A stretch of 64,000 bases of DNA, taken from positions 4,994 through 68,993 of the IMG/VR virus record IMGVR_UViG_3300025127_000024. The stretch is one strand, 5' to 3'. Below are positions 15,785-27,907 of this stretch, in pieces. This DNA is from a virus. The notes under the pieces are model-generated. The model was not told the origin of the DNA, searched no databases, and worked only from the letters and a program-made list of their open reading frames with translations. The translations under genes and the position numbers were made by a program. Position 1 is the first letter of the stretch; every line of letters starts with the position of its first letter.

Positions 15785-16024
15785 TTATTTAAATTTTTTA
15801 AGTTTATTTTCAATATTTGTTATTTTTTCTTTTAAAACTTTACAAGCTTCATAGTTTTCACGTTTAAGCTCAAAGTCTAATTTAGTCATAGCAGAAGCTA
15901 ATTCTCCTAATAATACCTCTTCTTGATCCTCTTCGGGAAGACTAAAAATACTTATTTCAGTAAATTTTTCCATAACTCTATTAGCTATGTCTTCTGCTAG
16001 TTTGTCTAATTGTTTTTCTGTCAT
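15785..16024 (-). CDS. hypothetical protein with UVR-like coiled motif
   Basis: ENYEACKVLKEKI resembles the UvrB/C motif; promoter immediately upstream. Confidence 0.55.
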   Translation of the reverse strand: MTEKQLDKLAEDIANRVMEKFTEISIFSLPEEDQEEVLLGELASAMTKLDFELKRENYEACKVLKEKITNIENKLKKFK

Positions 16025-16028
16025 ATTA

Positions 16029-16060
16029 TATTATCTAACTGTTTTCGTATTTAGTTTGTA
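16029..16060 (-). promoter_or_regulatory. class-1 (early) promoter TACAA-N4-AATACGA-N9-GATAATA
   Basis: Exact motif copy 1 of 7 on the minus strand. Confidence 0.8.
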
Positions 16061-16520
16061 ATTCTTTATATCTAGTCTCACCGTTAGCAAAATCAGTATA
16101 GTACATAGGTTCTTTCTGATTCATATATTTAGATATAATCTTTTCTGGTTTTAATACAAAAACACACTGATTAGAATACATATTCCAACAACTTACGTGT
16201 ATTTTGTCTTTATTACCAGTCCATATAATATATCTGTACTCATGATCTATTCTATCTGCTTTAGGATATAAATAAACACTATCGTAATAAAAATCGTGTA
16301 CAAATTTTGATGCCAGTCTTGAACCATCTTGACACCCGTTACTGTGTGTCATTAGCCAATTAGCTATTTGCACAGCTTGCCATTCAGGATAACCATCGTG
16401 GTGCTGATACATATTTACATAGCTTTTGTCTTGTACAAGATCAGGGTGTATAGCAAATCCTTCTGGATACTTGCTACTATGTTCACGGTCTACGACCATT
16501 GTTAAGTTTCTAGTGCTCAT
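16035..16520 (-). CDS. conserved phage hypothetical protein (YxHxDGYPE motif)
   Basis: MSTR...YQHHDGYPE motif. Confidence 0.7.
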   Translation of the reverse strand: MSTRNLTMVVDREHSSKYPEGFAIHPDLVQDKSYVNMYQHHDGYPEWQAVQIANWLMTHSNGCQDGSRLASKFVHDFYYDSVYLYPKADRIDHEYRYIIWTGNKDKIHVSCWNMYSNQCVFVLKPEKIISKYMNQKEPMYYTDFANGETRYKELQTKYENS

Positions 16521-16707
16521 GTTCTACTAGTATTTGCTCGATTTCATGATCGAGATTAGTAATTTCTCTTGCAAGATCTAAAAAATTTCTAAGAGCATTA
16601 ACTTCATAGTTGCTAAGCTCATCTGTTTCTCTGTCTTCGATCGCATTTATGCAATCTCTCATGTCTCTGACGGTATTTTCAAACCGACAATAACTCATAT
16701 TTGCCAT
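16510..16707 (-). CDS. conserved phage hypothetical protein (MSYCRFENT)
   Basis: Recognisable N-terminal motif. Confidence 0.7.
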   Translation of the reverse strand: MANMSYCRFENTVRDMRDCINAIEDRETDELSNYEVNALRNFLDLAREITNLDHEIEQILVEHEH

Positions 16708-16728
16708 ATTTATTTATTTATAATTTAG

Positions 16729-16802
16729 GTGCGCAGGGTGGACTCGAACCACCGACCTCGAGTTTATGAGACTCGCGAGCTAACCAGCTGCTCTACCGCG
16801 CA
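16729..16802 (-). tRNA. tRNA with CAT anticodon (Met, or Ile2 if lysidine-modified)
   Basis: Full cloverleaf: TGCGCGG/CTGCGCA acceptor, GAGC/GCTC D stem, CGAGT-CTCATAA-ACTCG anticodon arm, GGTGG-TTCGAGT-CCACC T arm. Confidence 0.92.
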
Positions 16803-16806
16803 ATTT

Positions 16807-17055
16807 TTAATCTAGTAAAACCATATAGGCTTCTATATTGTTTTTAGAAAACCATCTTAGTGCTTTATGAAAGTCATCTTTGTGTTTATCAGTGACAATA
16901 CCTGCTATCTGAGAGCCAATAATAAAATCATACATAGATAACTCTTCAGCTGTAAGCTCATATTCTTCGCCAGAAAATGGATTTTTAACAGTATCGCCAG
17001 ATTTGTATATCATTCCATTGAACCATTTAGGTAATTTATTCTTTTTCCCACTCAT
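16807..17055 (-). CDS. hypothetical protein
   Basis: ORF track. Confidence 0.65.
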   Translation of the reverse strand: MSGKKNKLPKWFNGMIYKSGDTVKNPFSGEEYELTAEELSMYDFIIGSQIAGIVTDKHKDDFHKALRWFSKNNIEAYMVLLD

Positions 17056-17482
17056 ATCCTTCTTCTATTAATTCGTTTTCAACTTCTTGTTTCATATCGC
17101 TCCAATATTCTTCGTATACTTCTTCAATAGCATCTTGATAAGCATACTCATCTTTATTGTATTCATCTATGTATATTGCTAAACCATCATAGATAGCTTG
17201 TGGTAGTTTTTCTAACCAATCAGACTCATAATAGTATAAATCTTGTTCAATATACGGTGATCTGTCATCTTCAGTAGCCATATATACTTCATAACCATCC
17301 GCTGTTGTTTGTGTATAGAAAAACATTTGACAGGATCCGTTCCAGTCTGTTTTAATTTCAGCGTCATAGTATTTTAATACTACTTTTTCCGCTTCTTCAG
17401 TGTCTAATTCTCCAAGGTATACAATACCTTTTTCTTCTAGTTTTTCAAGGATTAAATCCTCTGTTAGTTTTTTAATTGCCAT
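17036..17482 (-). CDS. acidic hypothetical protein
   Basis: Very Asp/Glu/Tyr-rich early protein. Confidence 0.65.
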   Translation of the reverse strand: MAIKKLTEDLILEKLEEKGIVYLGELDTEEAEKVVLKYYDAEIKTDWNGSCQMFFYTQTTADGYEVYMATEDDRSPYIEQDLYYYESDWLEKLPQAIYDGLAIYIDEYNKDEYAYQDAIEEVYEEYWSDMKQEVENELIEEGYEWEKE

Positions 17483-17735
17483 ATTCTATTTTATCATTAT
17501 TAGTTACCATCCACTCACAATCTTTTACGCTGTGACCTGCACCATATAAAAATGCTTCACAACTTTCATGATCAGGATTCCATTCGTTTTCATCTGTACA
17601 TAACGAGCTAATGTTATATCTATATGCTTTACCGTCATTAAAATCTAGTAAAAATATATATTTAGCTGTCTCATCTGCTATTATTATTTCTTTTTCTTCG
17701 ATCATTTCAAAGTATTTTTTTACTGTATCACTCAT
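17472..17735 (-). CDS. hypothetical protein
   Basis: ORF track. Confidence 0.6.
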   Translation of the reverse strand: MSDTVKKYFEMIEEKEIIIADETAKYIFLLDFNDGKAYRYNISSLCTDENEWNPDHESCEAFLYGAGHSVKDCEWMVTNNDKIEYGN

Positions 17736-17736
17736 A

Positions 17737-17970
17737 TTATTTGCTTATTATATTATCACCATACATAAAGCTATACGCACTCATCTCCCAGCTATTTAAA
17801 TTAGCATATGTCATTAGGTCTCTAAGCTCATCAATAGTTAGCTCGTACCATAATGATTTTGACATTAATGTGTACTTTAATCTTTTAGCTGTGCTGAATT
17901 TTTTAGCACTTTCTTGTAAGTTTTGTTTTACTTCTGGTAGAAGACTTTGATAGATTGTTTTTACTGTCAT
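17737..17970 (-). CDS. hypothetical protein
   Basis: ORF track; promoter upstream. Confidence 0.6.
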   Translation of the reverse strand: MTVKTIYQSLLPEVKQNLQESAKKFSTAKRLKYTLMSKSLWYELTIDELRDLMTYANLNSWEMSAYSFMYGDNIISK

Positions 17971-17980
17971 GTTTTTATTT

Positions 17981-18012
17981 TATTATCAATTATTATTCGT
18001 ATTAGTTTTGTA
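17981..18012 (-). promoter_or_regulatory. class-1 promoter
   Basis: Exact motif copy. Confidence 0.8.
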
Positions 18013-18360
18013 ATTTTTTAAGTAGTAATTAAGCAAAAAGTTTAATCTAGCTAAACCTGACCAGATAAGCGCTCTTGACCAAGTGTCATGTTCTTCAGTA
18101 ACTAGCCCATTACTTTTAAGAAATACATATTTAATCTTACGTTTATATTTAGGGTTTAGTTGCCATATTCTATCGCTACTGTCACATCTACGTACATAAC
18201 CTGATTTATAAGTCGCTAACATTTGACCTGTAGGCATTTTAAACTGTCTAGTGCCATTTTTGGCTTGTCTTTGTGTAGTTACTTCTTGAATACCATATTC
18301 TATTAGTAACATTCTTGCGTAAGCATTTTCTAATGCCTCTTGTTCTTGTCTCCAATTCAT
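17986..18360 (-). CDS. hypothetical protein
   Basis: ORF track. Confidence 0.6.
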   Translation of the reverse strand: MNWRQEQEALENAYARMLLIEYGIQEVTTQRQAKNGTRQFKMPTGQMLATYKSGYVRRCDSSDRIWQLNPKYKRKIKYVFLKSNGLVTEEHDTWSRALIWSGLARLNFLLNYYLKNYKTNTNNN

Positions 18361-18373
18361 AATTTAAATTTAG

Positions 18374-18473
18374 TGGACGTGGCAGGAATCGAACCTGCGT
18401 TATTAAAATTAGCTGGGTTGCTATTATAATTGAGTATACTCTCCCTTAATTTTAATCTAACCATTTCACGCCC
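18374..18473 (-). ncRNA. mini tmRNA-like (tRNA-like domain only) RNA
   Basis: GGGCGTG/CACGTCC-A acceptor with G3:U70, stemless D-loop, 10-bp helix, AAC linker and canonical T arm. Confidence 0.7.
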
Positions 18474-18662
18474 TTATTTGCGCCTCCAAGATTTGTGAAC
18501 TGCGGCTGATAGTTCTTGTGAAACTACCTGTACTTCAAGCACTTGCTTGTTAGCTATAATAGGAATATAGCTTACTTTTTTAGTTGAAGAACAACTGACA
18601 CAAGTGTTATAACCTAGCTCGATACGAACTGGGTGTACTATTTTACCGCATTTACAAATCAT
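18474..18662 (-). CDS. DksA/TraR-like C4 zinc-finger protein
   Basis: CKCGKIVHPVRIELGYNTCVSCS matches the CxCGxxIxxxRL...CVxC pattern. Confidence 0.65.
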   Translation of the reverse strand: MICKCGKIVHPVRIELGYNTCVSCSSTKKVSYIPIIANKQVLEVQVVSQELSAAVHKSWRRK

Positions 18663-18671
18663 AGTTTATTT

Positions 18672-18703
18672 TATTATCTTACTTTATTCGTATTAATTTT
18701 GTA
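18672..18703 (-). promoter_or_regulatory. class-1 promoter
   Basis: Exact motif copy. Confidence 0.8.
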
Positions 18704-18865
18704 ATAGCTTGTTTAAAGCAAGATTTATTACATATTCTTTCATGTCTTGATACTCATCGCCTTCAAGAGGTACATCAGATAACTGCCAATCGACACTATC
18801 TTCTATTATTTCTTTTACATGATTAGCTATAGCTTCTGCATGTATGTCTAATTCTTTCATTTTGC

Positions 18866-19117
18866 TCATTGTTTTGCTATTAATTTTAATTGTTCTACTG
18901 AATATTTTTTACTTGTTTGTTGCCACATACGATTGTGAGTGAACTTACGTGCTTTGGTATAAGATTTTTTACCTGATATTCTTACTCGATTATATTCTGC
19001 ATCAGTTAGTCCACTGCACACACCGTCGTGGGCGTGCTTACGTCTATGCTCCGCAGCTCGCAATTTTTTTGCCTGTTTTGCATAGAGGCATAATTCTTTC
19101 ATGTTAGTAACTACCAT
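18866..19117 (-). CDS. basic hypothetical protein
   Basis: ORF track. Confidence 0.55.
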   Translation of the reverse strand: MVVTNMKELCLYAKQAKKLRAAEHRRKHAHDGVCSGLTDAEYNRVRISGKKSYTKARKFTHNRMWQQTSKKYSVEQLKLIAKQ

Positions 19118-19302
19118 GGTAACAATGTTTTTTCTATGTAAGTTAAACCTTTGTAGTTAAACCAGTGTGATTTACCGTATTGTTCTTTGTTTTCATTATA
19201 AATAAAGCCAAATGAGTTTGGTAGATCGCCTATTAAATAGCCTTGATAAGTAGTATTTGCTATTTTTATTGTATTTTTGGATAAGAATTTGATTTTTTGC
19301 AT
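19111..19302 (-). CDS. hypothetical protein
   Basis: ORF track; promoter upstream. Confidence 0.6.
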   Translation of the reverse strand: MQKIKFLSKNTIKIANTTYQGYLIGDLPNSFGFIYNENKEQYGKSHWFNYKGLTYIEKTLLPW

Positions 19303-19315
19303 AGTTTTTTTATTT

Positions 19316-19347
19316 TATTATCTATAGTAATTCGTATTAAATTTGTA
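19316..19347 (-). promoter_or_regulatory. class-1 promoter
   Basis: Exact motif copy. Confidence 0.8.
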
Positions 19348-19566
19348 TTATAAACATTTATGAGCGTTAGTTAGTGCATATTTAGCTAATGATTGACGAA
19401 ATTCCCACTCGCGCTTGCGATATTCGTAGTCAGTACACCATTTGTACATAGCTCTGCTATTAGTATTAGGATTGTAATTAGCTTCAAACTCATCTATTTG
19501 TTGAAGTTTTTTAGTGATTAAACCTTTAGCGTCTAATTCTTTGAATTTAGTATCTTTAAATTGCAT
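19348..19566 (-). CDS. hypothetical protein
   Basis: ORF track. Confidence 0.6.
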   Translation of the reverse strand: MQFKDTKFKELDAKGLITKKLQQIDEFEANYNPNTNSRAMYKWCTDYEYRKREWEFRQSLAKYALTNAHKCL

Positions 19567-19707
19567 AGTATTATATTTTAGTAGAAGTCATAGTATATTT
19601 CTCTAACCTTAGACTTCTGTTCATCAGTTAGTTTAGTATAGTGCTTGTCAAATAGTCGCCAAGATATTTTTAGTAATGTATAAGAGTAATTGCACATAGT
19701 TATATTA

Positions 19708-19739
19708 TATTATCTATTTCTTTTCGTATTGTCTTTGTA
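19708..19739 (-). promoter_or_regulatory. class-1 promoter
   Basis: Exact motif copy. Confidence 0.8.
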
Positions 19740-20039
19740 ATTGGCTTCTCATAGTTTTCATCTGTGAGCGTACCGAAGAGTAACTCGTCAAAATATTCTT
19801 CACGAGCTACAAATCTTTGTTGTAATTTAGAATAATAACTTCTCATTATCCTAATATTCCGAATGAAGTGTTATCATTGATTACTATTTCGCCTGTTATC
19901 CAGAAGAATATAAATGATAGTATTCCACCGATTGCTAAAGTTGCTAGTCCTGTTATGAATGTATACAAAGCGATATTGCCTATTTTGTATAATACATAGT
20001 GTATAAATTTTCTGTTCATAGTATAATTTTAAGTATTAG

Positions 20040-20080
20040 TAGACATGGTGAGAATCGAACTCACATTAACCATTATGTCT
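20040..20080 (-). ncRNA. 41-nt tRNA top-half mimic (acceptor + T arm only)
   Basis: AGACATA-ATGGTTAAT-GTGAG-TTCGATT-CTCAC-CATGTCT-A, intergenic. Confidence 0.6.
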
Positions 20081-20100
20081 GATTTGTAAAGAAGTAGTTA

Positions 20101-20331
20101 TTATACTACCTCTTTATCTCTTACTAGAGTAGGAACTGAAGTGCTAGAAGTGTAGCTACCATATTTGATAAAGCAAGGCATAGTAGTTAACTTATCTTTC
20201 ATAATTTCCCACACTTTATCATGATTGTAAGTGAAAGTTTTACCTGATTTGAATTCTACATTTACAGTAGTATCTTTACCGATTAGAGATTTTCTGATTA
20301 CAAATCTTTTAGAAGTGATTGAATTTTGCAT
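20101..20331 (-). CDS. hypothetical early protein
   Basis: ORF track; first sizeable gene of the leftward arm. Confidence 0.65.
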   Translation of the reverse strand: MQNSITSKRFVIRKSLIGKDTTVNVEFKSGKTFTYNHDKVWEIMKDKLTTMPCFIKYGSYTSSTSVPTLVRDKEVV

Positions 20332-20365
20332 AGTGTTAAATTTAGTTATTAATTATTATTTATTA

Positions 20366-20397
20366 TATTATCTATTGTAAGTCGTATTTAGTTTGTA
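20366..20397 (-). promoter_or_regulatory. class-1 promoter
   Basis: Exact motif copy. Confidence 0.8.
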
Positions 20398-20493
20398 TTT
20401 GAGTGTATATTTGTTTACTTGTTTATATTTATTAAATAGTATTCCAACTTGTCTCAAAGTGTTTAACATTAGTTATTTAATTACTTACATTAT

Positions 20494-20525
20494 TATTATC
20501 TAATTAACTTCGTATTGATATTGTA
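20494..20525 (-). promoter_or_regulatory. class-1 promoter
   Basis: Exact motif copy. Confidence 0.8.
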
Positions 20526-20534
20526 TTTAGTTAA

Positions 20535-26532: not shown

Positions 26533-26843
26533 TGGCTTTTAAAATTAACCCACCTTATGATAGAAGCAAAATGGATCAACCTATTTATTTTGCAAATTTA
26601 GAAGAAGGTGTATTGGGCAAAACAAACAACAATGCTAGTGTAGTATTAGACGAGGGTCTTGGAGTAGAAGATCAGGCTAAAGTTGAAGCCCATGAAGCTG
26701 TTCACGTAGATCAAATAAAAAGAGGTGATTTATCTTACGATGATGAAAACGTATATTGGAAAGGTGAAACATATTCAAGAAAAAAAATGAACGAAGGCGA
26801 TGCTGCTCTACCATGGGAAGCTGAAGCTTATAACAACGCATAG
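26532..26843 (+). CDS. zincin-like metallopeptidase (HExxH)
   Basis: AHEAVHVDQ...PWEAEAY. Confidence 0.75.
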   Translation: MAFKINPPYDRSKMDQPIYFANLEEGVLGKTNNNASVVLDEGLGVEDQAKVEAHEAVHVDQIKRGDLSYDDENVYWKGETYSRKKMNEGDAALPWEAEAYNNA

Positions 26844-26845
26844 TT

Positions 26846-27907
26846 ATGGGAAATATAAAGAAAAAATTTAATTTAAGATCAAGCTTTAAACCAGCTAGAC
26901 AAAAACAAGCGGCTTTATTAGCTAAATCTCCTTTATATAATTTAGGTAAGCCTTCTCCATTGAATCATGAATATGGTGCTCCACATAAACATAAAAATAT
27001 TAGACAACAAAGAGAAGGAGAAAGAGGTTATGATTATGTTGAAGGAAGTGAGAATGAGTTTATGTTAATTGATGAACAACCACTAAAACCAATAGAAGAG
27101 TATGGTGATAGCAGGTTTTATAAGAAAAAAGTTGTTGGAGAAGATGGGAATGAATTTACCGCTAATGATTTAATATCAGAATACTCTACTCAAATATCTG
27201 ATTTATACAATAGAGGTGGTATAACAGGTGGTACTTTTGGTGGTATTACAGGTTCTAAATCACAGTTTAAAAAACCTTTATCAATAAAATATAATAACTA
27301 TAGTAATTCCCTAAGTGGTTCTTTATTTGGTAGATCAAAAATAAACGTTAGTGATTCACAAGAATTAAACTTTACACAACCTGAAATGGTATTCGATCAA
27401 GCTACAAACTCTTATATTTATCCAGAAGGAGGAGCTCCAGTAATACCTGAAAATCAAATGACTCCTCAGCAAGTTGAAGAACTTTTAAGATCAAGTGGTG
27501 GGTATATAACTTTTAATCCCGAAAGTGGAATGTTAGAAGGTGGAACAGGTGGAGCTATAGATCCTAACTCACCAATGGCAAGTGGTAGAAGTTCTGTTTA
27601 TGGTTATACACCGCGTGGACAAGAAGAAATATCCCCAGCCGCTACAAATTTTTATGAAGCAACACGTAGTGATGGTAGATACATACAGCCAGGAACTACT
27701 GAATACTCGTCTTATTACACCGATGACGATTACATGACAAATGTAAACGCGGCTAATTTAGAAAAATACAACCAGCAACTAGGTAGATATAGAAGCATGT
27801 TTGAATCAAACGGTTGTGATAATCCTAGAAATAGTAAAAGTAACGCTTGTAAATCAATTTCTAAATACATAATGGGTATAGAAAGAAGTATAAATAGTAT
27901 ACAGTAA
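26846..27907 (+). CDS. hypothetical protein with SPL motifs
   Basis: AKSPLY...PSPLN near the N-terminus. Confidence 0.65.
   Translation: MGNIKKKFNLRSSFKPARQKQAALLAKSPLYNLGKPSPLNHEYGAPHKHKNIRQQREGERGYDYVEGSENEFMLIDEQPLKPIEEYGDSRFYKKKVVGEDGNEFTANDLISEYSTQISDLYNRGGITGGTFGGITGSKSQFKKPLSIKYNNYSNSLSGSLFGRSKINVSDSQELNFTQPEMVFDQATNSYIYPEGGAPVIPENQMTPQQVEELLRSSGGYITFNPESGMLEGGTGGAIDPNSPMASGRSSVYGYTPRGQEEISPAATNFYEATRSDGRYIQPGTTEYSSYYTDDDYMTNVNAANLEKYNQQLGRYRSMFESNGCDNPRNSKSNACKSISKYIMGIERSINSIQ

What the first reader, a model, noticed from the sequence alone, without database searches (positions are those of the whole stretch)
18374..18473. 100-nt mini-tmRNA-like RNA: alanine-identity tRNA-like domain with no anticodon and no normal tag domain
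Seen (minus strand): GGGCGTG-AAATGGTTAG-ATTAAAATTA-[35 nt]-TAATTTTAAT-AAC-GCAGG-TTCGATT-CCTGC-CACGTCC-A. This gives a 7-bp acceptor with G3:U70 and A73, a stemless D-loop containing GG, a long helix replacing the anticodon arm, a 3-nt linker and a canonical T arm. It begins right after the stop of the DksA-like gene. Known: this is the architecture of the tmRNA tRNA-like domain, which is charged by AlaRS and bound by SmpB. Normal tmRNA is ~350 nt, and tag-less short forms are known mainly from protist mitochondria. Inference: a phage RNA that sequesters SmpB/AlaRS, or rescues stalled ribosomes without a degradation tag, e.g. to counter host tRNA/mRNA-cleaving defences.
Basis: partly seen in the sequence, partly recalled or inferred. 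Interest (0 to 1): 0.85.

Follow-up and report, generated by a model that had tools for sequence, protein, structure and literature searches.

The report
Phage tag-less mini-tmRNA with swappable arm
This marine phage carries a real 100-base RNA gene that keeps only the alanine-accepting, tRNA-like end of the bacterial ribosome-rescue RNA (tmRNA); this kind is known from one mycobacteriophage, but here it belongs to a large unannotated family whose constant frame holds an ever-changing inner arm.

Summary
Window 18374-18473 (minus strand) has a 7-bp acceptor stem with G3:U70 and A73. It also has a stemless GG-containing D-loop, a 10-bp helix closing a 35-nt loop, an AAC linker and a canonical T arm.

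It is not chance. At least 77 distinct relatives (68-185 nt) occur in uncultured marine, probably Flavobacteriaceae, phages. The helix covaries strongly. G3:U70 and A73 persist while acceptor pairs 4:69 and 6:67 and the T stem change by compensation.

Rfam's tmRNA model aligns the element end to end, with the roughly 300-nt mRNA/pseudoknot part deleted. The score is 37.2 bits, below the 47-bit cut-off, against 19.6 bits for the tRNA model. ARAGORN misses it. No tag reading frame is conserved.

The best reading is a TLD-only (tag-less) tmRNA derivative. It would be cut out of an early transcript, charged with alanine, and act on host SmpB-dependent ribosome rescue. Only the anatomy and its conservation are shown; the biochemistry is inferred.

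The kind has precedent in mycobacteriophage DS6A. New here are a divergent, populous family and a hypervariable arm built from modules shared with neighbouring unknown structured RNAs.

The "DksA-like" label of the upstream gene is not supported.

Earlier notes of this scan describe the same kind of RNA on other DNA.

The parts
18374..18473 (-). TLD-only tmRNA-like RNA gene (100 nt as far as A73), with no encoded CCA: the trailer reads CTA
   Evidence: Sequence; fold; RF00023 alignment over 18371-18473, 37.2 bits; own model R1, 84.5 bits
18467..18473 (-). 5' strand of the acceptor stem (G1-G7; G3 pairs with U70)
   Evidence: Never varies in alignment A1 except one G3-to-A. Other acceptor sequences in relatives keep G3:U70
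18457..18466 (-). Stemless D-loop analogue holding the GG
   Evidence: GG is invariant or nearly so in A1. RF00023 aligns it to the tmRNA D-loop analogue
18402..18456 (-). Variable arm: a 10-bp helix (18447-18456 with 18402-18411) closing a 35-nt loop (18412-18446)
   Evidence: The helix covaries across the family. The loop sequence is found in no other IMG/VR contig (exact 27-mer) and nowhere else in the window
18399..18401 (-). AAC linker between the arm and the T arm
   Evidence: A and C present in 90% or more of sequences
18382..18398 (-). T arm (5-bp stem, 7-nt T loop)
   Evidence: The T stem covaries in relatives found through the neighbouring protein
18374..18381 (-). 3' strand of the acceptor stem plus discriminator A73
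18474..18662 (-). Conserved 62-aa four-cysteine ORF just upstream, family unknown
   Evidence: A same-strand 62-aa ORF is the nearest upstream ORF in 32 of 60 loci (homology not checked row by row). 46 loci with homologues. Alignment A3. No Pfam or PHROGs family
18662..18705 (-). Copy of a 44-nt motif repeated 7 times before early ORFs; the likely promoter/leader of the unit that holds the RNA
   Evidence: The promoter function itself is inferred

Best explanation
The element is a gene for a small stable RNA made of a tmRNA-type tRNA-like domain (TLD) alone. It has an acceptor stem with the alanine mark G3:U70 and A73, a D-loop analogue without a stem, and a T arm. One helix takes the place of tmRNA helix 2 and closes a short variable arm instead of the tag-coding and pseudoknot ring.

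Proposed mechanism, with what is shown and what is inferred:
1. It is transcribed early as part of the message that starts at the repeated motif before the 62-aa ORF. This is inferred from the layout; there is no motif copy directly before the RNA.
2. Host RNase P cuts its 5' end right after the ORF's stop codon. The 3' end is trimmed and CCA is added. This is inferred. The trailer is the same as that of the phage's own tRNA-Met and of the full-length tmRNA of Cellulophaga phage phi38:1.
3. Host AlaRS charges it with alanine. This is inferred from the conservation of G3:U70 and A73 while neighbouring pairs covary.
4. As Ala-TLD it binds host SmpB and EF-Tu. It either titrates SmpB away from host tmRNA or enters stalled ribosomes without supplying a tag. 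Either way, proteins made from broken messages during infection are not tagged for destruction. This is inferred by analogy with tmRNA and with the TLD-only molecule reported to inhibit tmRNA.
5. The variable arm is not needed for this core function. It is free to be exchanged, or it carries an added function (see rivals).
For: Anatomy.

Model scores:
- The tmRNA model RF00023 aligns the whole element, with 302 model positions replaced by 35 nt (37.2 bits).
- The tRNA model gives 19.6 bits.
- Four relatives score 32.3-41.2 bits with RF00023, and two in MAG contigs score 36.7 and 37.9 bits. Weaker matches in the same genomes, whose identity I did not check, score about 25-28 bits.

Family and covariation:
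- 53 distinct elements came from the 25-mer scan and 77 class-1 elements in all.
- The helix covaries.

G3:U70 and A73:
- They are kept with acceptors GGGCGTG, GGGAGTG, GGGCGCG and GGGTGCG, each with the matching compensated 3' strand.
- Among the 27 R1 matches of 25 bits or more in the 46 loci fetched through the neighbouring protein, 20 have G3:U70 with A73.
- Of the 21 such matches above 50 bits, 20 have it. The one A3:U70 copy sits in tandem with a G3:U70 copy.

No tag frame: peptides ending in Ala-Ala-stop occur in 1 of 80 arms (shuffled mean 0.45). Adjacent double stops occur in 6 of 80 (shuffled mean 10.4).

Phage precedent within the wider group: Cellulophaga phages phi38:1 and Calle_3 (terminase about 37% identical) carry a full-length 362-nt tmRNA (87.6 and 86.6 bits; ARAGORN). 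It ends in the same non-CCA trailer.

Partners: the phage record has no SmpB of its own, so any SmpB partner would be the host's.

Expression (weak hint): two metatranscriptome runs of one study hold contigs identical to the whole element (18375-18475 and 18373-18475, 0 differences). The neighbouring bins on both sides show no cover.
Against: - The score is below Rfam's gathering cut-off (37.2 against 47). The mt-tmRNA model finds nothing.
- The motifs that frame helix 2 in real Bacteroidota tmRNAs and in the Rfam consensus (a longer D-loop analogue ending in GAC, and GGAC before the T arm) are replaced by a shorter stretch and AAC. Descent from a tRNA by loss of arms is therefore not excluded.
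- No aminoacylation, SmpB binding or ribosome entry has been tested.
- The cited report says inhibition did not need alanine charging (PMC4131195). Plain SmpB titration therefore does not explain why G3:U70 is so well kept.
- The arm is made of structured modules that recur in other RNAs, which points to a function of the arm itself.
- Some relatives lack G3:U70: GGACGTG, GAACATA with discriminator C, and the minihelix class.
- The sample is biased. Most loci were fetched with a 25-mer that contains U70, and model R1 was trained on such sequences.
- The RNA contigs come from one study, cannot show ends, and may hold DNA.
Confidence: 0.5

Rival explanations
1. Carrier for cargo. The tRNA-like frame serves mainly as a processing and stability scaffold (cut by RNase P, CCA added, perhaps charged). 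The exchangeable inner arm is the working part, for example a protein-binding decoy, an antisense piece, or a building block of a larger RNA assembly made with the neighbouring structured RNAs.
For: - The arm differs completely between phages whose neighbouring 62-aa protein is 95-97% identical.
- 38 of 77 distinct arms share exact 14-mers with DNA outside the element in other loci, often over tens of bases.
- One recurrent module keeps a fixed internal loop while its flanking helices covary with each host scaffold (14 variants).
- Close variants of an arm show compensatory changes (L009, L011, L022).
- In relatives, the 100-500 nt before the element hold further conserved non-coding units.
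Against: - It does not explain why the alanine mark G3:U70 with A73 is kept through compensatory change of its neighbours. A scaffold only needs a stem.
- The smallest members (68-70 nt) have almost no arm.
- The window's own arm matches nothing else in IMG/VR or in the window, and the window's phage lacks the neighbouring units.
Confidence: 0.25
2. Punctuation mark. The element is a tRNA-shaped cleavage signal that lets RNase P and 3' processing enzymes cut the early polycistronic message between the 62-aa ORF and the 124-aa ORF. The released RNA would be a by-product, as with the mascRNA at the end of MALAT1.
For: - It lies exactly between a stop codon and the next ORF, which starts 13 nt after the element, inside a unit bounded by two copies of the 44-nt motif.
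- A 41-nt acceptor/T-arm minihelix sits between two other early ORFs, and the three tRNA-type elements share a trailer.
- Weak mascRNA-model matches appear on a canonical TLD-only relative.
Against: - A cleavage signal needs no G3:U70, no A73 and no D-loop GG, yet these are conserved.
- In many relatives the element follows 100-500 nt of non-coding RNA rather than an ORF.
Confidence: 0.12
3. True miniature tmRNA with a micro-tag. In the window's copy the loop holds a frame reading Gly-Glu-Tyr-Thr-Gln-Leu followed by two stops. It opens like the Gly-Glu tags of Bacteroidota tmRNAs, so stalled peptides would get a short tag that does not mark them for destruction.
For: - The frame is visible in the sequence.
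- Tags of two Bacteroidota MAG tmRNAs can be read. One begins Gly-Glu, and both contain Tyr and end Ala-Leu-Ala-Ala (my reading of the printed sequence).
Against: - No such frame is conserved in 80 relatives, and stop-codon patterns are at or below shuffled expectation.
- Arms evolve by compensatory base-pair changes, not by synonymous change.
- A 35-nt loop on a 10-bp helix lacks the pseudoknot ring. Whether it could reach the decoding site is unknown.
- This reading was made after the fact, in an A+T-rich loop.
Confidence: 0.04
4. Decayed tRNA gene, attachment-site remnant or chance fold.
For: ARAGORN and Rfam thresholds do not call it.
Against: - There are dozens of distinct conserved copies with covariation.
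- Both halves of the acceptor are present.
- The 22-nt 3' end occurs in only 6 stretches of the 185,579-species genome collection, all short MAG contigs, so it is not a host tRNA or tmRNA end.
- No relative has an anticodon arm.
Confidence: 0.02

Closest known systems
TLD-only ('CDS-less') tmRNA of Mycobacterium phage DS6A (tmRNA Website; PMC4131195 and PMC11915505, passages read; the primary paper, Mao et al. 2009, was not held)
   Same: A phage-encoded RNA that is little more than the tmRNA tRNA-like domain, with no tag reading frame. A similar molecule is reported to inhibit host tmRNA, perhaps by titrating SmpB.
   Different: I did not fetch or align the DS6A sequence. The host phylum differs. 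The family here scores below Rfam's tmRNA cut-off. Its D-loop analogue and pre-T-arm linker are diverged. Its arm is hypervariable, reaches over 100 nt, and is built from modules shared with neighbouring RNAs.
Canonical 78-nt TLD-only tmRNA in 111-kb IMG/VR phages (L069, L071, L077, L078), with unannotated copies in cultured Streptomyces phages
   Same: Same architecture and size class: G3:U70, A73 and a short closing helix with a hairpin.
   Different: These keep the tmRNA-typical motifs around helix 2 and pass Rfam's cut-off (57 bits). The window's family does not (32-41 bits).
Bacterial tmRNA (Rfam RF00023), including the full-length tmRNA of Cellulophaga phages phi38:1 and Calle_3
   Same: The acceptor with G3:U70 and A73, the stemless D-loop analogue with GG, the T arm and the position of helix 2 all match. 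The phage full-length form has the same non-CCA trailer.
   Different: About 300 nt are missing: pseudoknots and tag-coding region. No conserved tag frame is present. The score is below the cut-off.
Mitochondrial (jakobid) and plastid CDS-less tmRNAs (Rfam RF02544; PMC11915505, passage read)
   Same: Reduction of tmRNA to the tRNA-like domain, with no tag frame.
   Different: The mt-tmRNA model finds no match in the phage record. Those forms are organellar, with a co-occurring SmpB; this one is viral and has none.
tRNA-Ala acceptor/T-arm minihelix substrates of AlaRS (recalled from general knowledge; no call)
   Same: Charging would depend on G3:U70 in an acceptor helix with no anticodon.
   Different: The element also has a D-loop analogue and a long extra arm. 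The tRNA model scores only 19.6 bits.

Membership tests
tmRNA (Rfam RF00023) | 7-bp acceptor stem with G3:U70 and discriminator A73 | tested here: met
   Kept in 20 of the 21 matches above 50 bits found through the neighbouring protein
tmRNA (Rfam RF00023) | T arm with a canonical T loop, and a D-loop analogue with GG but no D stem | tested here: met
tmRNA (Rfam RF00023) | Conserved motifs framing helix 2 (a D-loop analogue ending in GAC, and GGAC before the T arm), as in the Rfam consensus and two Bacteroidota tmRNAs | tested here: not met
   a shorter stretch and AAC stand in their place
tmRNA (Rfam RF00023) | Score at or above the curated gathering cut-off (47 bits) | tested here: not met
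   37.2 bits; relatives score 32.3-41.2 bits
tmRNA (Rfam RF00023) | mRNA-like domain with a resume codon and a tag frame ending in a stop | tested here: not met
   No conserved frame in 80 arms. ARAGORN finds no tmRNA in the window or in 58 loci. One unconserved 6-codon frame exists in the window's loop
tmRNA (Rfam RF00023) | Pseudoknot ring (PK1-PK4) | tested here: not met
   302 model positions are replaced by 35 nt
tmRNA (Rfam RF00023) | Alanylation by AlaRS, and binding of SmpB and EF-Tu | not testable with these tools
   Biochemistry is needed
TLD-only (CDS-less) tmRNA, DS6A type | tmRNA-type tRNA-like domain closed by a short helix, with no coding region | tested here: met
TLD-only (CDS-less) tmRNA, DS6A type | Sequence homology to the DS6A element | not tested
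   The DS6A record was not fetched. Canonical TLD-only relatives in other phages were compared instead
TLD-only (CDS-less) tmRNA, DS6A type | Inhibits host trans-translation | not testable with these tools
   Known only from passages in PMC4131195 and PMC11915505
tRNA (Rfam RF00005) | Cloverleaf with a D stem and an anticodon arm; score at or above 29 bits | tested here: not met
   19.6 bits. No D stem or anticodon arm. ARAGORN is silent
mt-tmRNA (Rfam RF02544) | Match to the family model | tested here: not met
   No match at E <= 10
   No Pfam family at E <= 0.01, and only FdhE_C at E 0.091. No PHROGs family. No fold match at E <= 0.001

The most novel reading that the evidence does not exclude
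The alanine-chargeable tRNA-like frame is a natural carrier that displays exchangeable structured RNA cassettes. The same cassettes also sit in other, still unnamed scaffolds of a modular non-coding RNA island in these phages. The cassettes would be the effectors (decoys, or parts of an RNA assembly). The frame would give them tRNA-type processing and stability, and perhaps delivery to SmpB or the ribosome.
Probability: 0.2. Interest if true: 0.85.

Novelty: new variant of a known kind. Interest (0 to 1): 0.6.

Why it matters
Phages that carry only the tRNA-like end of tmRNA point to ribosome rescue as a target or a tool during infection. So far this idea rests on one mycobacteriophage gene and one inhibition experiment.

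A populous, well-conserved marine family changes the footing. The alanine mark is kept by selection, and standard annotation tools miss the gene. That makes the question testable across many natural variants. It also shows that current tmRNA and tRNA finders undercount such genes.

The hypervariable, modular arm and the neighbouring unknown structured RNAs add a second open question: how and why do phages shuffle RNA modules between scaffolds?

Tried and rejected
Searches that found nothing useful
- Nucleotide similarity of the 2-kb neighbourhood to cultured phages: no match.
- The 100-nt element against cultured phages: only T-arm matches in ordinary tRNAs.
- Model R1 on five cultured relatives (MW202828, elemoA_7-9A, phi13:2, phi38:1, Gundel_1): weak matches only (29.1 bits or less), which look like tRNAs or other tRNA-like genes. 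No class-1 element.
- Rfam on 14 related loci at gathering thresholds and on 4 loci in permissive mode: nothing for the upstream non-coding units.
- The window's loop as an exact 27-mer in IMG/VR: no match. As a 28-mer with up to 3 mismatches in the window: only itself. So there is no antisense target in the window.
- The upstream modules of relatives were sought in the window by short motifs: absent.

Readings considered and dropped
- Tag reading frame: rejected as a family feature.
- GTT/AAC pairing, predicted by the fold between the D-loop analogue and the linker: variants such as GGTAAG and GGATAG break it without compensation, so it is not counted as a helix.
- The 62-aa ORF: its AlphaFold model (pLDDT 82.4) has no PDB match at E <= 0.001. 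No function is assigned.

Sequencing runs
- All four runs laid are contigs, so no ends, strand or level can be read.
- The two oligo-dT runs X15 and X16 cover flanking genes at low depth but not the variable arm.
- The lack of cover on the flanks in X17 and X19 is reported only as a weak hint, because both belong to one study.

Literature
- Five full-text searches turned up no description of this marine family. Supplements were closed and may list such genes.
- Mao et al. 2009 was not held. Its content is known to me only through passages in PMC4131195 and PMC11915505.

Full report
THE OBSERVATION

There is a 7-bp acceptor stem whose third pair is G:U, with discriminator A. Then come ten unpaired bases containing GG, a perfect 10-bp helix around a 35-nt loop, an AAC linker, and a 5-bp T stem with a TTCGATT loop. 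The element begins at the base after the stop codon of a 62-aa ORF (18474-18662), and the next ORF (17986-18360) starts 13 nt after it.

An unconstrained fold recovers the acceptor, the long helix and the T arm. The energy is -26.5 kcal/mol, z = -2.95, and none of 200 shuffles folds as well. ARAGORN finds only a tRNA-Met at 16728-16802. Rfam at its curated thresholds finds only that tRNA.

IT IS A CONSERVED GENE FAMILY

The exact 25-nt 3' end occurs in 59 stretches of IMG/VR viral contigs. In all 59 the matching 5' half lies upstream, which gives 53 distinct elements of 68-149 nt with the window's own. The two ends are nearly constant, while the middle differs in length and sequence.

In the alignment (A1) all 7 pairs at the base of the long helix change on both sides. 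There are 98 such cells against 42.8 +/- 5.4 in shuffles; 0 of 500 shuffles reach the observed value, and slid controls give 20-55.

That scan fixed the 3' strand, so I sampled in two further ways.
- A pattern that names only the D-loop analogue and the T loop returned 34 stretches. Eighteen were already known. Of the 16 new ones, L073 has another acceptor (GGGTGCG with its compensated partner) that still has G3:U70. Five have an A-rich acceptor without it. The rest look like ordinary tRNAs.
- The 62-aa neighbour protein retrieved 46 loci. A covariance model built from A1 (R1) found 27 matches of 25 bits or more in them, and 20 of those have G3:U70 with A73.
  - Among these 20, the acceptors GGGCGTG, GGGAGTG and GGGCGCG each have the compensating 3' strand, and the T stems also differ by compensation.
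  - The exceptions are one A3:U70 copy standing in tandem with a G3:U70 copy, two copies of a GAACATA type with discriminator C, one other type, and three 47-nt minihelices.

R1 was trained on G3:U70 sequences, so these counts lean that way. The compensatory changes around an unchanged G:U are still the strongest sign that the pair itself is selected.

WHAT IT RESEMBLES

Searched over 4 kb or over the whole record, Rfam's tmRNA model aligns the element from the first to the last model position. The acceptor, D-loop analogue, helix 2, T arm and 3' tail are all aligned, and 302 model positions are replaced by the 35-nt loop. The score is 37.2 bits (E 1.5e-12 and 6.1e-15), below the 47-bit cut-off. 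In a first, 351-nt search the same model gave only a truncated 11.9-bit match.

The tRNA model gives 19.6 bits (cut-off 29), and the mitochondrial tmRNA model gives nothing. Four relatives score 32.3-41.2 bits with the tmRNA model. Two in MAG contigs score 36.7 and 37.9 bits; weaker matches in the same genomes, whose identity I did not check, score about 25-28 bits.

Two real Bacteroidota tmRNAs from those MAGs have a longer D-loop analogue ending in GAC and have GGAC before the T arm. The phage family has a shorter stretch and AAC. The likeness is therefore one of architecture and partial sequence. It is not full membership.

No tag frame is conserved. Frames ending Ala-Ala-stop occur in 1 of 80 arms (shuffled mean 0.45), and adjacent double stops in 6 of 80 (shuffled mean 10.4). 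The window's loop does hold a six-codon frame beginning Gly-Glu and ending in two stops. It is unique to this copy, and I treat it as chance.

WHERE IT LIVES

The window is most of a 68,993-bp virus record. Its large terminase is 64% identical to that of one uncultured podovirus. It is 31-44% identical to those of Flavobacterium, Cellulophaga, Tenacibaculum and Maribacter phages, so the host is probably a member of the Flavobacteriaceae.

The 22-nt 3' end occurs in only six stretches of the 185,579-species genome collection, all short MAG contigs. It is therefore not a copy of a host tRNA or tmRNA end or of an attachment site.

Five cultured relatives have no class-1 element at R1's sensitivity. 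Cellulophaga phages phi38:1 and Calle_3, however, carry a full-length 362-nt tmRNA (87.6 and 86.6 bits). ARAGORN reads it with a 22-residue tag, and its 3' end has the same non-CCA trailer as the window's element.

Unrelated 111-kb phages in IMG/VR carry a canonical 78-nt TLD-only tmRNA that passes Rfam's cut-off (57 bits). Near-identical copies lie in cultured Streptomyces phages, unannotated in most of those records. Reduction of tmRNA to its tRNA-like domain therefore recurs in phages. The phage record has no SmpB.

CONTEXT AND EXPRESSION

A 44-nt motif occurs seven times before early ORFs on this strand. One copy ends at the start of the 62-aa ORF, and the next comes only after the 124-aa ORF. 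None stands directly before the RNA. The RNA is thus probably made as part of that message and cut out.

The three tRNA-type elements of the window are the tRNA-Met, this element, and a 41-nt acceptor/T-arm minihelix at 20040-20080. All three are followed by nearly the same trailer.

A same-strand 62-aa ORF is the nearest upstream ORF in 32 of 60 loci. The protein is highly conserved but has no Pfam or PHROGs family and no fold match.

Two metatranscriptome runs of one study hold contigs identical to the whole element (18375-18475 and 18373-18475), with no cover in the neighbouring bins on either side. Further contigs match only the constant 3' part and then run into other arms. These are contigs, all from one study, and DNA carry-over cannot be excluded. 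I count this as a weak hint of a stable RNA.

THE ARM

Phages whose 62-aa proteins are 95-97% identical to the window's carry wholly different arms. Of 77 distinct class-1 elements, 38 have arms that share exact 14-mers with DNA outside the element in other loci, often over tens of bases.

In many relatives, the 100-500 nt between the 62-aa ORF and the element are non-coding and hold several conserved units with constant ends and variable middles. The same modules appear in those units and in the element's arm. One module keeps a fixed internal loop while the helices on both sides covary with the scaffold (14 variants). None of these units matches an Rfam family or RNase P type A.

The window's own phage has none of them, and its arm is unique in IMG/VR.

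MECHANISM

The best-supported account is a TLD-only tmRNA derivative. It would be released by RNase P and 3' processing, completed with CCA, and charged with alanine because of G3:U70 and A73. It would then act on SmpB-dependent ribosome rescue, either by taking SmpB from host tmRNA or by entering stalled ribosomes without supplying a tag.

What is shown: the anatomy, its conservation and covariation, the tmRNA-model alignment, and the lack of a tag frame. Every biochemical step is inferred.

The literature gives a precedent. [quoted passage not shown] That last point cuts both ways. If charging is not needed for titration, then the conserved G3:U70 suggests that charging, and hence EF-Tu and ribosome entry, matters here.

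The main rival is that the frame is a carrier and the arm is the working part. A punctuation role in message processing may coexist with either reading.

WHAT IS KNOWN AND WHAT IS NEW

TLD-only tmRNAs are in print for one phage, for jakobid mitochondria and for some plastids (PMC11915505, PMC4131195). My five full-text searches found no description of this marine family or of its modular arm. Supplements were closed.

Earlier notes of this scan, read after my own analysis, describe the same kind of RNA on other DNA, including a marine 143-nt copy with a "swappable arm". They agree with the results here, but they are not independent evidence.

I class the finding as a new variant of a known kind.

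Noticed in passing
window 20040-20080 (-): A 41-nt acceptor/T-arm minihelix with no long arm and no G3:U70 lies between two early ORFs. Its trailer is nearly the same as that of the TLD element and of the tRNA-Met. 47-nt relatives occur in L087, L089 and L092.
   Followed up: partly
L046:2274-2653, L050, L030, L011 and other loci (the gap between the 62-aa ORF and the element): 100-500 nt of non-coding DNA are packed with conserved structured units that have constant ends and variable middles, and they share modules with the element's arm. They have no Rfam family and no RNase P type A match. They are absent from the window's phage.
   Followed up: partly
L071:5218-5295 (+); also L069, L077, L078: 111-kb uncultured phages carry a canonical 78-nt TLD-only tmRNA that passes Rfam's tmRNA cut-off (57 bits). 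Copies 97% identical lie in Streptomyces phages LuckySocke and GiJojo, with no RNA gene annotated there, and more distant ones in pSt2308, BRock, Alone3 and Stenotrophomonas virus Jojan60.
   Followed up: partly
L158 (Cellulophaga phage phi38:1, record 26803-27164, -) and L159 (Calle_3): A full-length 362-nt phage tmRNA. ARAGORN reads its tag as 22 residues ending Val-Gly-Val, not the usual Ala-Leu-Ala-Ala. Its 3' end is not CCA.
   Followed up: partly
window 18474-18662 (-): A 62-aa protein with four invariant cysteines and an invariant basic C-terminus is syntenic with the RNA in many phages. It has no family and no fold match. It could be an RNA-binding partner, but nothing tests that.
   Followed up: partly
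window 16019-20527 (7 copies): A 44-nt motif is repeated seven times on the early strand, each copy ending at or near an ORF start. It is presumably a phage early promoter with leader.
   Followed up: partly
L113:1778-1956, L068:5388-5647, L043: Some phages carry two elements in tandem or close together. In L113 and L053 one copy has lost G3:U70 (A3:U70). In L068 one copy has an encoded ACCA end.
   Followed up: no
L145 (MW202828.1, record about 520-640, +): The closest cultured-collection relative (terminase 64% identical) has a different tRNA-like gene. It has a D arm and a 9-bp helix closing a loop of about 30 nt in place of an anticodon arm, and no G3:U70.
   Followed up: no
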